Below are positions 39,001 to 45,000 of a DNA stretch of 64,000 nucleotides, piece after piece. The stretch comes from Endomicrobiales bacterium (lineage in GTDB: Bacteria > Elusimicrobiota > Endomicrobiia > Endomicrobiales > CAWCFT01). The position numbers are program-made. The number at the start of each line of letters is the position of its first letter. Positions within the stretch are counted from its first letter, which is position 1. The stretch lies in the NCBI GenBank assembly GCA_963794945.1, contig CAWCFT010000005.1, positions 1 to 64,000 of the forward strand, read 5' to 3'.

Positions 39001-42000
39001 TATCAACCCTGGTCAGGCCTAACCCGAACGAAAGCCGGAAGTTTTGTGAAATTTCGTATTCAGCGCTGCTATTAATAGTTGCCGTGTTCGTATTATCGGT
39101 TGTTACATTAAGGCTTGACTGTTTAATTATATACTTCAGTGTGTTATTTATGATCATTCTGTTAGTAAGGTTAAGCTTTCTGCTGGAAAAAGGTATGGGT
39201 ATGCCTTTTGGGAACGACATATCAGCATACATCTGTATGCTGTACGTGTCAGTTTGCAAATCAGTTGTAAGTTTACCGGTACCGTCTGAGCCCTGTTCAG
39301 ACTTTCGTCATAGCGTGTAGTAATACGCCAATGTTTCCAGTTGAACGCCCCTTGCGCTGACCATGCCGTGTTTTGTCCTGAATCAGCCGTGACATTTTGA
39401 ACAAGGTCTTTGTCTTCATTGACCTGCGATGAAGCGGACAAGCTCATGTCAACTTTTTTTAGCAGGTTAAATCTAAAGTCAGCGCCGTAAGTCTCGCTAT
39501 TGCCTTCTGTATAATTTTCAGTTTTCGTAGTTTTTATCTGGGTTTTCAGGTTTAACTGAGAGTCATGCACCCATTTTTCAAGCCAGAGCATCTTTTCTAT
39601 CTGGCTCATCCCAAGTAAAATATCAGGCCAGACCGTGGTTTTGGTGAATCTCTCGGTGCCTGTTATTGTTGAATCTTCCTGGCTGTTAGTAAAAGTAAAG
39701 TTGGTAGTTATTGTCTTCATTGGAGCTAATCGGCCCGATAAATTAAAAGCTTCGAACGGATTGTATCTACCGGAGAGCCTTGCATCATCCTTGTAATCCA
39801 TAGCCTGTACGGTGAATGATGACGAAGCTCCCTGGAAGTTAGAGATATCGTTGGCAAGGCTATTACCTCTTATCCAAAGCCTGTTCGCGGTGAATCCGTA
39901 TGGGTCAAATGAACTGACAACGTTATTGTATGAATCACTGTCTTGTATCCTAAATGAAGATGAAAAACCCAGAGATTGTGTATATTTATATTTCAAAATG
40001 TCCTTGACCTGAAAATTCCACGAGACCTCGCCAGTTCCGCTTCTTTCTATGAACTTTGTGGTACCGGGATATGAGATCGTGTCAGTAGAAACAACTGTTG
40101 TTGGCAAACCCGTGGTAGTGCTTATAACTACCGTACCGGTGCTGTACGCTGAATTATACGTTTCTTTAATGCTTATCATATAACTGACATTTGGCTGGAA
40201 CCATTTCGCAAGCCGTAAGGATGATGTAACCCCCAAATCCTGACCGGTATTTTTCATATACTCGGGTATTGAAGGGACAAAATCTTTATTGATCTCCGAC
40301 ACTTGTGAACGGCTGTAACTAGGTGAAACGCTAAGCCACGAGAAGAACTGAAAAGGCGCTTTAAACGAGTACGATCTGCTAGTGTCAAGCGTATGATAGT
40401 CATCTATTTTATAACCAGGTTCATCGCTCATCCCAAGGTATTTATATAACGCGTTCGGATCAAGAAAATCGCTTGACGTCGGTATCGCGCTTGAAGGATA
40501 AACCTTGAAATATGAATATCCAAGACTCGTATTGGCCGATATGTGGGTCGGGAAAAGAAAAAATCTCACGGGAGTGTTGTATTCAAGGCTTCCTGACATT
40601 TTTTGGTCGTCTTGAAGTTGCTGTATTTGCTGAGTATCGGTTATCGTTCTGTTGTACTGACCATTTAAAACAGGCAGGTACCTTCCGACTGACGGGAAAG
40701 CGCTTCCTATATTCAGTGACGTGTTAAGAGTGCCGTTATAATTAACGACCTGACCTTCTTCAAGCAGGGATACAAGATTATTCTGCGTTTGCACTACTGA
40801 AGGCGTTACCACAACTGAATGATCGAGCTCTGTGCTTATCGGCAGTATAGACAATCTATTGAACTTGAAATATGCCTTTTCATCAGTTGTATCCCTGTTA
40901 TAGACGCCCGCCGAAAATGTTCGAAAGTTCCTGTCGACTTGTTTCTTGTAAACCCCGAACTCCGCCCAGCGAGGCAGTTTGAAATCCAAGTTCACCCTGT
41001 TTGCGCCTCCGTTTTTAATATAAGGATTTTCCACGAACATATCATCGATCCATATTTGACCGTTTGGCCTCGGCGCATGCGTCCGTACACCCGTTCTGAA
41101 TTGCCCTATGGCAAGAAAAGATGGGCTTCCGACAATCTGTGTCATAGCTCCACCAGCATCGGATGTAGCTCCGCTTGAATTCACTGCCCATGTTTGTGGC
41201 CTATTATTTTTTTGAGTAATATCATATTGATATATAATTATTTCTTTCCACTTGTTCCACGTTATTGGAACAGAGTATTCATAATAGTTTGTGTCATCGC
41301 CGGCTTGAAGAAAAAATGTATCACCATTATCTTGGGTGCTGCCGTAAACAAAGACATGGAATTCCTTATAATTTGAAAGATCGTATGGTGTAGTAAAAAC
41401 TTCTTTTACAGCGACCTCCTCTCCCGTTGAGGCCACGGTCGTATATTGCATTTGGAGCGCTTGTTCATTCATACCAGTCAGGTTTGTAGCGGATGTGATA
41501 CCATAAATGCTCTGATATGTCGGATTAAATATCAACGACTCATTTGCGTATTCGCTATTTGACCTATCAATCGCTGTAATGCTCTCAGTACTTCCATTTT
41601 GAAGCGTGCTCGCTACTAGAAAGCGGTTGCTTACAGCACCTAAAGTGTATATTTTAATAAAATTACTAGGGCCTTGGAGATTTTGGGTAGAACTTGTTCT
41701 TCGTATTGTAATCCTTACCTGTTTTATTGTTTGCCAGTCAGCAGCATTCGCAATATTTAAAGGAACCGTAAAATATTTCCATCCTTTCCAGTCGACTGAA
41801 GTATGAGTGTTGCCAGCGGTATCTATGATGCCTCTCGTGCTTTCAGCACCGTAAGGGCCTGGATAAGCAATATTGTCAATACGGTTCAATACTCCGTCAC
41901 CATCGAGGTCTTCGGTGTCAATTTTACCGTTTCCTGCGCCGAAACGCGTTGTAGTGCCGTCGGGATTTAAGAATGCCCAACCTACATCTTCACCCTGGGT

Positions 42001-45000
42001 AAGGCTTCCGGTGTGGCTTAAATCTTCGGTTTTAGGCACCGTTGCATTCGGATCTCCATCAGCATTTTCGTTTATCTGTCCAAACCCTATCGAAAGCTCT
42101 TCGTTATTCCCGTCACCATAGATACACATTTCAAGATATGATTTTTGCGACCAATCCTGACCTACATTGGACAAAGGTTCGACAATTGATAACTCCGGAG
42201 AGCGGGAAAGATTATAATTTATATGCAGCACCTGCACATTTTGATTACTTACTGAAACCAGAGTATTGTTTATATCACTTAATGCTACTTGATCGGTTAA
42301 CCATGAAATATCGTTTAAAAAATATCTTACTCCAGAAGGAGTGGCGGCAGGCTGCCAGGAAAGATAATTCGTAGATATACCGGCCTCCTGCTTAATGCCT
42401 TCCATGTTCTCCACAATAGCTACGCCAGAATTAGTTATATTCGGATTTTCAGAACTCTGTGCGAACTCCGCACCCACTGACATCAGTAACGGTGTTCCCG
42501 GCACTTTTACGTCACTAATCTTTGTGTCGCCTTCCAATACTGACAAACTTGTAGGCGTCGTGCGTATATCAGGCGCCGTAGCGCTCTGAGCATCCATCTG
42601 GTAGATATAGCTCATACCAACAAAAACATTCTTTGTAAGGGAAAGCTGGGACCTTAAACCGATAAGGGTAGAACCGCCGGTCCCGCCAAAAGGAGCATAA
42701 TCGTAAGAGACTTCAATTACAGTACTTTCCGTGATCTTTTCTGCATTGAAAAATGTCACTATTCCTGCGTCATAATCTATGAAGTAGTCTTCATTGGACT
42801 TCAATATCACTCCATCCATAGTGACCTTTTCCGACTTGGGAACTATTCCAGGCCGCAGAGTTATAATCTTAATCCTGTAACTGTATTGTGTTAGTATATT
42901 GTAGGCATGAGTACTCTGGGTGTACAGAGTACTTTGAAAAGGCAGACTGGTAGGCGGTTCAAAGTTGAACACACCGTTCTCAAAATCAACTGTAACGTTA
43001 CTTGGATACATAGGCACTGGTTTTCCGTTTGGTGTGCTTGGATCCACAATTGTGGTAGGCTGCTTGTCCGTAAGATCCACTACACGCCAAATGAAATTAC
43101 CCCTGCCGTTGTCCCTAATGATTTGCAGATCGCCAAAACTATAGAATGTTTTCAGCTCTGTTGAAAGACCTAATGTCACGGAATCATCGTATTTTATTAT
43201 TTTTAGCATACCGGGATCAGCCCCGATGCTTGAAAGGCGCGTTACGCTTGCCCCGTTTGTTTTCTGGTAATCTATAGCCACAACATAGTTTGAGAGCATC
43301 TGCTTTTTAAAAACAAGTATCCCTCGGCTATAATCAACTGTATAGTCTTGGCCCGGAATAAGAAGATTAAAATTGCCCGTATAATAAGTTGCAGGGCTTG
43401 TTAGTGTTTCAACTGTCATAGTTGACGTATTAATATTATTTGTAACAGGGTTTCGATTATCCAGATATACCTGGATCGAGCCACCGACCATAGTGTCATT
43501 ATCTAACTTCACGGCATAATACTTCATCGCTATATAGCCTGTATCAGGAATTTCCTTGCGAATAAGCTGGGTGTTCCCCGTAAATCTTTTAACTTCCGAA
43601 AACCCTTTTGTTCTAGAGAAAAACCCCCAGGATTCCAGCCCTTTGTATTTCGCCTTTACCTCAACTCCGAAAAGTTGTTTTGAATATCCAACGAACTCTG
43701 TTTGGGGTAGCGACATGTTTATGTCGCCGAAAGCGGCTTCCTGTATAACTTCATTTTTATCCCCCTTGTAAACTACAGATATATCACGTTTATCCGCAGT
43801 GGTGTCGTCGAAATCAACGTTGACATTGATCTTTCTGCCGACCTGGCCTTTTATTCTCACTTGCAGTTCCTGGGTCATATCGAAGCTAGGGGAAGGGTTG
43901 GTCCTTATGGGGGGATTTTCAACATCGTATGTTGTGGATTTGAACGCAACGCCTATAACTTTTCTTCCGGAAATCGAAAGCTGGGATTCATATGGCAGCT
44001 CAACTGAAAGTCCTGGAGGCAGAGGGACAGGCGTACGCCTTGTCACAGAAGAACCGACCACTTCCTTTTCGGTTTCCGTTACATACCCTTCATTCTGCCT
44101 TCGCATGCATATCCATTTGTCATTTGTAAAACAAAAAATATTCGTGCCGGCGAGGTACTGTACCAGTTCTTCACCGGCCTCTCCCGGTTCTGTGACTGTA
44201 GGGATCGACAAATCGTATGAGTTTACAGTAGATGTTGAAACTGAAACCGAGGCTGACTGGGAGGTAGTGCTTAATTTCAACAGATAGTTATCTACGTTAT
44301 TTTTATCACCCAGGATTGACAGGTTCTTTACTGTGGAATGGAATATTTCGGCCCTAAGCGTAGTTACCTGTATGATGAGGACGGCAATTACACAACATGC
44401 AGAAAGGAAACGTTTCATGTGTTGGCCTGCGACAACATTGTTATAAACAGGTTCAAATTATGTCCTTTTTGTGGCCAATATCAACCTTGCCCGCAACACC
44501 CTTGCCGGGCAAATGCTTCTGAGCCGGAATCATAAATATTTTGTTGCTAAATATTCGCTACAATTATAGCTCTTTTCGTTTCATTTTTCCATATATTTTG
44601 ATATAATACAAAATATATTATCCTCACTTCTGTCCGGTTAAAAAGCGAACGCCATTGTTAGTTGGCGGTCTGTGTTTTTGATTTTAGGCAGCAATCGATC
44701 ATTCAAATTAAGTAAGTCAATGAGATTGAGGCGTTCAAGAAGCGTTTCCTGAATGACTTTGTGCAGGTAGAACAGTGAATATTTATATTTTGACTGATAT
44801 TTGATGTAAGACAGAAGCAAGTAGTAGCACATGGCAATCCAGATCTGCGTAAGCACAGCGTTCTTTGAAGTGCCAAAGAATGTTTTGATTTTAAGGTTCT
44901 GCTTGATCCACTTGAAAAAGACTTCAACTTGCCAGCGGGCTTTATAGATACCAGCAATAGTAGAAGCGGCAAGCTTGAAGTTGTTGGTAATAAAAACAAG

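What a model noticed while it worked through the whole genome (the two positions that open the first line are those of the whole stretch)
39154..44418. SprA-like translocon and a dozen cargo-linked PorV-like barrels without PorKLMN: a stripped T9SS in Elusimicrobiota
g01261 (1754 aa, no Pfam or NCBIfam call) is a significant but sub-threshold homolog of the T9SS outer-membrane translocon SprA/Sov, and the genome also holds 12 PorV/PorQ-family barrels and 12 proteins with the T9SS type A C-terminal sorting domain, nearly always as neighbouring cargo-PorV pairs, while GldK, GldL, GldM and GldN (PorKLMN) give no match. I read this as a working, stripped-down type IX-like secretion pathway outside the Bacteroidota/FCB group in which each cargo locus brings its own PorV-like shuttle and the PorLM motor is missing (possibly replaced by the FliF-FliG/MotAB module reported separately). 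New would be T9SS-type secretion as a core trait of Elusimicrobiota and a nat [...]
Evidence so far: g01261 vs TIGR04189 surface_SprA: E 6.8e-41, 139.6 bits, 3 stretches, cut-off 200. A profile of g01261 (residues 60-1200) and 21 homologs (A7, call 167) searched against all PDB sequences hits only the solved Flavobacterium SprA (6h3i/6h3j, 2403 aa): E 2.6e-36, 127.6 bits, 3 stretches, best 808-1160 of the profile on 1158-1597 of SprA. Homologs of g01261 in 178 of 201 Elusimicrobiota genomes, 159 of 170 good-quality ones, mostly one match of 1700-1900 aa; some carry Pfam SprA_N PF14349 and one source names the Endomicrobium proavitum protein 'SprA N-terminal domain-containing'. NCBIfam over cut-off: 12 PorV/PorQ (NF033709) and 12 type A sorting domain (TIGR04183) proteins; adjacent pairs g00 [...]
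(Added by a program. Inside this text positions count along the whole contig: contig position 1 is position 1 of the stretch shown here. "Call 12" and the like, gene names such as g00115 and contig names such as C1 are that model's own, and its searches are not shown. The text may have been shortened before it was handed on; [...] marks where a part breaks off. The agent that wrote the report below was given it as the finding of a first reader that could run no searches.)

Follow-up and report, generated by a model that had tools for sequence, protein, structure and literature searches.

The report
Type-9-like secretion core without its motor
A bacterium from a phylum where type 9 secretion is thought absent carries a shortened but genuine copy of its giant outer-membrane pore, plus many tagged cargo genes each followed by its own carrier barrel, and none of the motor proteins thought essential, so this export core may be older and more modular than current models hold.

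Summary
Confirmed, with corrections. g01261 is a real SprA homologue: predicted structures of both halves match solved SprA far above anything else (Foldseek E 1e-46 and 1e-35). The window copy is frameshifted near 39295; its true C-terminus lies in ORF 38924-39259 (about 1830 aa in all). Homologues occur in 192 of 221 phylum genomes and are co-lost with PorV-like barrels (18 of 19 PorV-negative genomes lack SprA). In this genome 15 of 25 PorV-like genes sit directly behind a gene ending in a T9SS sorting domain. GldK, GldL, GldN and SprE (0 of 45, 45, 45, 25 genomes over cut-off) and GldM (0 of 151) were not found, while 5 of 5 Bacteroidota controls rang. A FliF-FliG rotor gene follows a PorV-TPR gene in 39 of 40 orthologous loci, but 4 of 4 near-complete SprA-bearing genomes tested lack FliG and MotB, so it is not the obligatory energiser. 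Best reading: a working SprA-carrier-cargo export core with dedicated carriers that stay on as anchors, plus an optional flagellar-derived motor. Nothing is shown experimentally. I found no paper on it; this scan noted it earlier on other genomes.

The parts
39290..44418 (-). SprA-like translocon gene, in-frame part (signal peptide, N-terminal barrel strands, extracellular cap domains, most C-terminal barrel strands). The called ORF runs on off-frame to 39154
   Evidence: TIGR04189 E 6.8e-41; model of residues 101-1190 pLDDT 80.4; Foldseek SprA E 1.3e-46, TMq 0.57; frame break located by tblastn
38924..39289 (-). True C-terminus of the SprA-like protein after the frameshift (called ORF 38924-39259): last barrel strands ending in Phe
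   Evidence: P0002, P0003 and P0005 align here in the other frame at 53-71% identity; 114 of 116 homologues of 1600 aa or more end in Phe
38181..38900 (-). comF-like gene, conserved directly downstream of sprA
   Evidence: TIGR00201 sub-threshold; family F2 present in 17 of 21 loci
44630..45890 (-). IS4-family element inserted between sprA and the divergent lptF (not part of the system)
   Evidence: NF033592 over cut-off; perfect 14-bp terminal inverted repeats
45922..48096 (+). lptF-lptG, divergently transcribed conserved neighbours of sprA
   Evidence: PF03739; family F1 in 17 of 21 loci
48303..49868 (-). Divergent PorV-like barrel of the conserved sprA neighbourhood
   Evidence: NF033709 E 7.4e-15, 55 bits, below cut-off 90; a PorV-like gene in 12 of 21 sprA loci
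49884..50762 (-). TPR protein with a lipoprotein-like N-terminus upstream of the PorV-like gene; role unknown
   Evidence: TPR_19; family F8 in 5 of 21 loci
22986..24425 (-). PorV-family carrier barrel with a C-terminal CsgG/FlgO-like domain
   Evidence: NF033709 101.5 bits, over cut-off; PF03783 E 3.5e-7
24480..25904 (-). Cargo: signal peptide plus C-terminal type A-like sorting domain, directly upstream of the carrier
   Evidence: TIGR04183 over cut-off at 24489-24716; hydrophobic N-terminus
25952..27764 (-). Second cargo in two ORFs (lectin-like propeller 26403-27764, sorting-domain tail 25952-26386), probably one gene split by a sequence error
   Evidence: PF07938 and NF052350 weak; TIGR04183 at 25964-26179; 17-nt gap and no signal peptide on the tail ORF

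Best explanation
A type-9-like export core that works without the Bacteroidota energy chain. Shown here by homology and predicted structure: g01261 is a compact SprA (about 1830 aa against 2403), a large beta-barrel with extracellular cap domains. Inferred from the known SprA mechanism: cargo crosses the inner membrane by its signal peptide, its Ig-like C-terminal domain enters the pore and binds the loops of a PorV-family carrier at the lateral opening, and the pair leaves sideways. Inferred from gene order and the missing sortase: each cargo uses the carrier encoded behind it and stays bound to it as a surface anchor (type B logic with type A-like parts). Many carriers have periplasmic tails (TPR, OmpA, LysM, CsgG-like) that would tie surface cargo to the cell wall or to other machines. 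Release from the pore needs no dedicated rotary motor in the small-genome lineages, or borrows a housekeeping one. In larger genomes one class of PorV-TPR carrier is the client of a flagellar-derived FliF-FliG/MotAB motor that moves or senses its cargo. My odds by step: SprA homologue 0.97; exports these cargo 0.85; dedicated anchoring carriers 0.75; no obligatory dedicated motor 0.6; FliF-FliG motor acts on its neighbouring carrier 0.55.
For: Both halves fold like SprA: N-half TMq 0.57 against 0.09 for the first non-SprA row; C-half of intact homologue L002 E 1.3e-35, TMq 0.47, with 975 residues aligned from SprA 778 to 2400. A profile of 41 distant hits of g01261 reaches named Flavobacteriales SprA at E 4e-134, and one bridge protein (P0272, Firestonebacteria) passes the TIGR04189 cut-off with 226 bits. 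Co-loss: 18 of 19 PorV-negative genomes lack SprA, and the 19th (G149) keeps only a weak relic. Among 9 SprA-negative or relic genomes, 6 had no sorting-domain match and 3 only a partial or stop-broken one. Pairing: 17 of 27 against a chance maximum of 5; a terminal sorting domain is directly followed by a PorV-like gene in 4 of 6 loci from genomes without FliF-FliG. Peptidase C25 (PorU) not found in 3 of 3 phylum genomes, found in 2 of 2 controls. Carrier tails. Near-complete small SprA genomes hold one MotA/TolQ/ExbB-family gene, which SprA-negative kin also keep. Loading of cargo on SprA-PorV needs no energy (PMC10994853, passages); type B carriers are encoded directly downstream of their cargo and stay bound (PMC12618676, passages).
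Against: No expression, localisation or secretion data. [quoted passage not shown] The whole barrel was not folded in one piece (pTM 0.55 and 0.51; rmsd to SprA 11-17 A), so closure, strand number and the lateral opening are untested. g01261 and 2 of 2 phylum homologues tested stay below the SprA cut-off (140, 166, 114 bits against 200). 11 genomes lack an SprA match but keep PorV-like genes, two of them (G042, G198) not badly fragmented. Family f20 keeps SprA (59 of 61) but only 11 of 61 have a TIGR04183 match; my profile finds 18 of 21, yet many of those are partial matches repeated inside one large protein and may be internal FlgD-type domains. 7 of 27 PorV-like loci have no adjacent cargo. 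The window copy is frameshifted and has an IS4 element upstream.
Confidence: 0.6

Rival explanations
1. The FliF-FliG rotor with MotAB stators is the general replacement for GldLM/GldKN: it pulls carrier-cargo pairs out of SprA for the whole cell.
For: PorV-TPR lies directly upstream of FliF-FliG in 20 of 20 best loci and 19 of 20 further orthologues chosen across families. MotA lies within the fetched 13-14 kb in 12 of 19 orthologue rows printed and 16 of 19 paralogue loci. All three copies in this genome lie downstream of a cargo-PorV pair. No FlhA in this genome or in 3 of 4 other genomes tested.
Against: Found in 78 of 221 genomes against 192 for SprA; 1 of 70 in family f2 and 0 of 61 in f20. 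FliG_C and MotB_plug not found in 4 of 4 near-complete SprA genomes, while both rang in 4 of 14 named controls. It is linked to particular carriers, and nothing in the 21 sprA loci clustered as such a module.
Confidence: 0.13
2. An energiser exists in every SprA-bearing genome but was missed: GldLM/KN too divergent for the HMMs, or the Tol (TolQRA) motor or type IV pilus ATPases lent to the translocon.
For: The SprA itself is below cut-off, so a motor could have diverged further. 40 of 42 genomes hold a MotA/TolQ/ExbB-family gene. 19 of 45 genomes hold FGE-type domains of the GldK fold. A 921-aa TPR protein in the Tol locus scores 117 bits against PorW/SprE, cut-off 250.
Against: No GldM or GldN signal even at E 0.001 (0 of 151, 0 of 45). 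GldK-fold hits reach at most 88 bits against a cut-off of 350 and are absent from this genome and from G031, G043, G066 and G124. The single TolQ-like gene is also kept by SprA-negative genomes. The barrel beside tolQ matched only 2 of 42 genomes.
Confidence: 0.2
3. The barrel is SprA-derived but does something else (for example outer-membrane biogenesis with LptFG, or DNA uptake with ComF), and the FlgD-Ig/PorV pairs are anchoring modules exported by another route.
For: The most constant neighbours are lptFG and comF, each in 17 of 21 loci. The sorting domain overlaps FlgD_ig. The PorV/FadL barrel fold serves other roles, e.g. BamG (PMC12611786, passages). At least six genes here encode only a signal peptide and a sorting domain, with no passenger.
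Against: Co-loss of SprA, PorV-like barrels and sorting domains. A PorV-like gene in 12 of 21 and a sorting-domain gene in 11 of 21 sprA loci. Sorting domains are terminal in 30 of 31 loci and sit on Fn3, PKD, Kelch, lectin-like and M6-protease passengers.
Confidence: 0.07

Closest known systems
T9SS outer-membrane translocon SprA/Sov with PorV and type A CTD cargo (F. johnsoniae; PDB 6H3I, 6H3J, 8GL6, 8GL8; TIGR04189, NF033709, TIGR04183)
   Same: Colinear sequence and fold match over both halves of the barrel; PorV-family barrels (one hits PDB PorV, E 1.9e-4); terminal Ig-like sorting domains on signal-peptide proteins.
   Different: About 570 aa shorter and below the family cut-off; about 25 carriers instead of one general PorV (none of 18 tested reaches the PorV or PorQ equivalog cut-off); no GldKLMN, SprE/PorW or PorU found; outside the FCB group.
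Type B cargo with cognate PorP/SprF carriers, including SprB-SprF gliding adhesins (PMC12618676, PMC12635249)
   Same: Carrier gene directly downstream of its cargo; inferred permanent anchoring; a carrier with a periplasmic tail linked to a motor module.
   Different: Carriers score as PorV/PorQ family, not PorP/SprF (best TIGR03519 28.7 bits, cut-off 90.55); tails are type A-like (one weak type B hit, 27.6 bits, cut-off 35); the linked motor is MotAB/FliG, not GldLM; no invariant tail cysteine in the PorV-TPR alignment.
Flagellar motor core (FliF MS-ring, FliG, MotA/MotB)
   Same: YscJ_FliF_C, FliG_M, FliG_C, MotA_ExbB, MotB_plug and OmpA domains.
   Different: FliF and FliG are fused, with a TPR tail and apparently a signal peptide plus one membrane span; no FlhA here; encoded behind PorV-TPR carriers. 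Uzun et al. (bioRxiv 10.1101/2022.07.08.499144, passages) noted motAB and fliG without flagella in this phylum and called their role unclear.

Membership tests
SprA/Sov translocon | Sequence homology, colinear over the protein | tested here: met
   Four colinear segments against 6h3i, E 2.5e-44; bridge to named SprA
SprA/Sov translocon | TIGR04189 equivalog cut-off of 200 bits | tested here: not met
   139.6 bits; intact phylum homologues 166 and 114 bits
SprA/Sov translocon | SprA fold (giant barrel with extracellular cap) | tested here: met
   Foldseek ranks 1-4 are SprA for both halves; VIA Z 17.1, rmsd 13.7, 975 aligned
SprA/Sov translocon | Closed 36-strand barrel with a lateral opening | tested here: inconclusive
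   Halves folded apart; about 8 + 4 + 27 long strands counted by eye from DSSP, compatible with 36 but not a count of barrel strands
Type IX secretion system (Bacteroidota definition) | PorV-family carrier | tested here: met
   11 loci over the NF033709 cut-off here; 202 of 221 genomes, 140 over cut-off
Type IX secretion system (Bacteroidota definition) | Cargo with signal peptide and type A or B C-terminal domain | tested here: met
   20 of 22 TIGR04183 matches over cut-off; terminal in 30 of 31; 147 of 221 genomes
Type IX secretion system (Bacteroidota definition) | GldL/GldM (PorL/M) motor | tested here: not met
   GldM 0 of 151, controls 5 of 5; GldL 0 of 45 over cut-off, one weak 24.7-bit match, controls 5 of 5. 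HMM-level only
Type IX secretion system (Bacteroidota definition) | GldK/GldN (PorK/N) ring or track | tested here: not met
   GldN 0 of 45, controls 5 of 5; GldK 0 of 45 over cut-off, 19 with generic FGE-type hits, controls 5 of 5
Type IX secretion system (Bacteroidota definition) | SprE/PorW of the extended translocon | tested here: not met
   0 of 25 over cut-off (11 with TPR-level hits of at most 52 bits), controls 5 of 5
Type IX secretion system (Bacteroidota definition) | PorU sortase (peptidase C25) | tested here: not met
   0 of 3 phylum genomes, 2 of 2 controls; small sample
Type IX secretion system (Bacteroidota definition) | PorG, SprT/PorT, PorZ, PorD, SkpA, Plug | not tested
   No search made; PorZ model hits seen were to the sorting domain only
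Type IX secretion system (Bacteroidota definition) | CTD-dependent, SprA-dependent export of folded cargo | not testable with these tools
   Needs genetics or proteomics
Bacterial flagellum | Export gate FlhA | tested here: not met
   PF00771 not found in this 86%-complete genome nor in 3 of 4 others; rang in G064 and 4 of 14 named controls

The most novel reading that the evidence does not exclude
The SprA-carrier-sorting-domain core is an ancient, motor-independent surface-display machine that predates Bacteroidota gliding, and Elusimicrobiota independently coupled it to a flagellar-derived rotary motor (MotAB stators, fused FliF-FliG rotor) that acts through the periplasmic TPR tail of a dedicated PorV carrier on a giant exported adhesin: a convergent analogue of GldLM-SprF-SprB, possibly an undescribed form of surface motility.
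Probability: 0.35. Interest if true: 0.93.

Novelty: new variant of a known kind. Interest (0 to 1): 0.77.

Why it matters
Reviews and recent structural papers call the T9SS and SprA specific to Bacteroidota or the FCB group (PMC12611786, PMC8754138, PMC11205867; passages), hold that release from the pore needs the GldLM energy chain (PMC10994853), and infer that the T9SS first evolved as part of Bacteroidota gliding (PMC12635249, Discussion read). A phylum-wide SprA-PorV-cargo set with no Gld proteins challenges all three points and gives a natural minimal system in which to ask what the energy step is for. A source names one homologue as Endomicrobium proavitum (P0043), a cultured species (recalled), so the question is testable. 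The link to a flagellum-free FliF-FliG/MotAB module offers a concrete role for genes that an earlier study of this phylum left unexplained.

Tried and rejected
Complex prediction of the PorV-TPR periplasmic tail with the FliF-like domain: no answer (score 0.14, mark 0.32, controls not folded); not evidence either way. Carrier-cargo binding was not modelled. Read check of the frameshift: no RNA holder listed, two DNA runs at 0.08-0.09 word share, whose contigs do not cover the break. A riboswitch at sprA, suggested by an earlier scan note: none at Rfam gathering level in the window or L001-L004. A Parabacteroides plasmid record with sprA as GldM control: negative, unusable; replaced by five Bacteroidota genomes. 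The barrel beside tolQ as a universal SprA partner: 2 of 42 genomes, rejected. A scan for named non-Elusimicrobiota loci with alignment A4 could not be run for lack of conserved stretches, so the range outside the phylum rests on four named clusters among 30 looked up (Firestonebacteria, Desantisbacteria, Hydrothermota, one labelled Caldisericota). Recent transfer from Bacteroidota: not favoured by a midpoint-rooted FastTree of 42 sequences, but there was no outgroup and no topology test. ESM Atlas added only SprA_N-bearing clusters without taxa and Por_Secre_tail/FlgD clusters. Paper search matched 'spray' and 'Sprague' and was useless.

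
Full report
OBSERVATION. The ORF at 39154-44418 (-) is real, 1754 aa, and scores as stated against TIGR04189: E 6.8e-41, 139.6 bits, cut-off 200, with no Pfam family. 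It is frameshifted: three intact homologues follow it to about 39295 and continue in another frame from 39289 to 38927, which is ORF 38924-39259. The protein is therefore about 1830 aa; homologues of 1600 aa or more have a median of 1804 aa, and 114 of 116 end in Phe, the usual outer-membrane barrel ending (established knowledge). Many other genes of this 86%-complete genome are split in the same way, among them tolQ, motB, two FliF-FliG copies, several carriers and cargo, so an assembly error is the likely cause. Public contigs did not cover the break.

IS IT SprA? Yes, by three routes. (1) A profile of 89 sequences hits only Flavobacterium SprA among solved structures (E 2.5e-44) in four colinear segments, SprA 149-266, 435-544 (not significant alone), 701-779 and 1158-1598. 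(3) There is a continuum of relatives: 1108 representatives at E 0.001 or better; a profile of 41 distant ones reaches named Flavobacteriales SprA at E 4e-134; a Firestonebacteria relative passes the curated cut-off (226 bits) and a Hydrothermota-cluster one scores 486. Limits: the barrel was not folded whole, rmsd values are high, and the lateral opening is unseen. In a midpoint-rooted tree of 42 sequences the 13 phylum sequences group with two others (support 1.0; 0.63 on their own) among sequences that include Firestonebacteria and Desantisbacteria, apart from the Bacteroidota clade.

DISTRIBUTION. Names on close homologues place the genome in Elusimicrobiota. Of 221 phylum genomes, 192 have the barrel (169 of 180 good-quality), 202 a PorV-family gene and 147 a TIGR04183 domain. 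All 19 PorV-negative genomes are in genus g2, mostly small; 18 also lack SprA and the 19th has a weak relic. These are kin and some are incomplete, so this is not 18 independent losses. Eleven genomes lack SprA but keep PorV matches: five have only one or two weak ones and no TIGR04183 match; six are unexplained or assembly gaps. In 21 sprA loci the recurring order is TPR protein, PorV-like barrel, M6-protease with sorting domain, then lptG-lptF divergent from sprA, comF, gap, pgk. In the window the protease is missing and an IS4 element lies upstream of sprA.

CARRIERS AND CARGO. This genome has 25 NF033709 loci (11 over cut-off) and 22 TIGR04183 matches (20 over cut-off). With these library models 15 of 25 carriers have a sorting domain ending within 700 nt upstream on the same strand. 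With profiles built from the genome's own genes, some picked beside carriers and so slightly biased, the count is 17 of 27 plus 3 with the cargo directly downstream; random genes gave at most 5 in 100,000 draws. Passengers include Fn3, PKD, Kelch, lamin-tail, lectin-like and M6-protease domains. Six genes encode only a signal peptide and a sorting domain (113-143 aa), and four similar ones were seen in relatives. Carriers often carry C-terminal TPR, OmpA plus Fn3, LysM or CsgG-like domains, which would face the periplasm (inference from barrel topology). In F. johnsoniae all type A cargo share one PorV, whereas type B cargo have cognate carriers encoded directly downstream that stay bound (PMC12618676, PMC12635249; passages). 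Here type B gene logic is built from PorV-family and type A-like parts.

THE MOTOR. With five Bacteroidota genomes as positive controls, each of GldM, GldN, GldL, GldK and SprE rang over cut-off in 5 of 5; in the phylum GldM matched 0 of 151, GldN 0 of 45, and GldL, GldK and SprE were over cut-off in 0 of 45, 45 and 25. Peptidase C25 matched 0 of 3 against 2 of 2. The controls show that the search works on Bacteroidota; they do not exclude very divergent homologues. The FliF-FliG fusion at C3:47049 follows a sorting-domain-only gene and a PorV-TPR gene, and its two paralogues here also lie behind cargo-carrier pairs. PorV-TPR is directly upstream in 20 of 20 best loci including this one, in 19 of 20 further orthologues picked across families, and in 12 of 19 paralogue loci; a sorting-domain gene precedes the carrier in 11 of those 20 orthologues; MotA is nearby in 12 of 19 printed orthologue rows and 16 of 19 paralogue loci. 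Yet the fusion was found in only 78 of 221 genomes, 1 of 70 in f2 and 0 of 61 in f20, and family searches confirm no FliG_C or MotB_plug in G031, G043, G066 and G124, all SprA-positive and 97-100% complete. The small ones hold a single MotA/TolQ/ExbB-family gene, as do SprA-negative kin, and still pair terminal sorting domains with carriers (4 of 6 loci). So the module is a partner of particular carriers, not a universal replacement for GldLM.

MECHANISM. Most likely: cargo reaches the periplasm, its tail binds its own carrier inside the SprA-like pore (an energy-free step in F. johnsoniae; PMC10994853, passages), the pair exits sideways and the carrier remains as anchor, there being no sortase found. 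How the pair is released is the open step, since in F. johnsoniae that step needs the motor. I favour release without a dedicated motor, helped by single-use carriers that need not recycle (inference), over a hidden or borrowed energiser (0.2) or the FliF-FliG module (0.13). In larger genomes the flagellar-derived module probably moves or senses one class of carrier-bound adhesin.

NOVELTY. It works like the T9SS translocon but fails the motor, ring, SprE and sortase criteria, so I file it as a new variant, not as a T9SS. Ten full-text searches found no paper describing SprA or a T9SS-like system in this phylum; 'T9SS' with 'Elusimicrob' gave three papers, one read in passages (PMC12204202, unrelated use) and two seen as listings only. 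The library lacks most subscription papers. Passages read call SprA FCB-specific (PMC12611786; its Extended Data Table 2 and supplement were not seen and may show SprA in FCB phyla without Gld), the T9SS FCB-specific (PMC8754138, PMC11205867) or found only in Bacteroidetes (bioRxiv 10.1101/031039); the Discussion of PMC12635249 (part 1 of 2) derives the T9SS from Bacteroidota gliding. PMC7031533 passages held nothing relevant. I recall, without a call, that SprA without gld genes was noted in Rhodothermus and Salinibacter; if so, motor-less SprA is not wholly new within FCB. Automatic databases already tag some homologues SprA_N. This scan reached the same reading earlier on other genomes of this phylum and similar ones in Bipolaricaulota, FCPU426 and Margulisbacteria, and noted the motor operon several times; those notes are leads, not support.

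VERDICT. Real, well beyond chance, and surprising to a T9SS specialist; function inferred, not shown. Interest 0.77.

Noticed in passing
window 44630-45890: IS4-family element with perfect 14-bp terminal inverted repeats in the divergent sprA/lptF intergenic region; it could affect either promoter.
   Followed up: partly
G000 C15:42502-42843, C15:16517-16900, C8:26359-26724, C8:43893-44276, C4:25720-26100, C3:45029-45460: Genes encoding only a signal peptide and a T9SS-type sorting domain, each beside a PorV-like gene; perhaps plugs, caps or assembly partners for carriers whose working end is the periplasmic tail.
   Followed up: partly
G000 C15:41467-45801 and C15:173036-177311: Two paralogous loci where a sorting-domain-only gene and PorV-like gene sit inside a polysaccharide cluster (Wza-like export protein, Wzc-like kinase in the first), recalling PEP-CTERM/exosortase loci (recalled comparison).
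   Followed up: no
G000 C3:36141-55701: Chemotaxis-like genes (by eye CheC/CheD-like), an FtsA/PilM-like gene and a 1553-aa protein with no family flank the sorting domain-PorV-TPR-FliF-FliG operon.
   Followed up: partly
G000 C4:256073-288000: A motAB pair lies between a type IV pilus cluster and a very large, heavily split gene ending in a sorting domain with no adjacent PorV-like gene.
   Followed up: no
L001:1744-3450 and 10 of 21 sprA loci: An M6-family metalloprotease with a sorting domain is a conserved neighbour of sprA; a candidate processing enzyme in place of PorU (speculation). In this genome it lies elsewhere (C13:23122-24820, behind a PorV-like gene).
   Followed up: partly
G149: A genus g2 genome with a weak sprA relic (E 9e-14), no PorV match and a stop-interrupted sorting domain: apparent decay of the whole system in progress.
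   Followed up: partly
G000 C15:121533-128918: Tol-Pal-like locus with a 921-aa TPR protein and a 480-aa protein of no family inserted between tolB and tolQ; the latter matched 2 of 42 genomes.
   Followed up: partly
window 12942-14340, 53622-54649, 61232-62342: Ordinary genes in two pieces (by eye phosphomannomutase-like, nucleotidyltransferase, DegT-like), consistent with indel errors in the assembly.
   Followed up: no
window 277-4430: A cluster that by eye looks like a DNA methyltransferase, Vsr-like nuclease, endonuclease and ATPase (restriction-modification); not searched.
   Followed up: no
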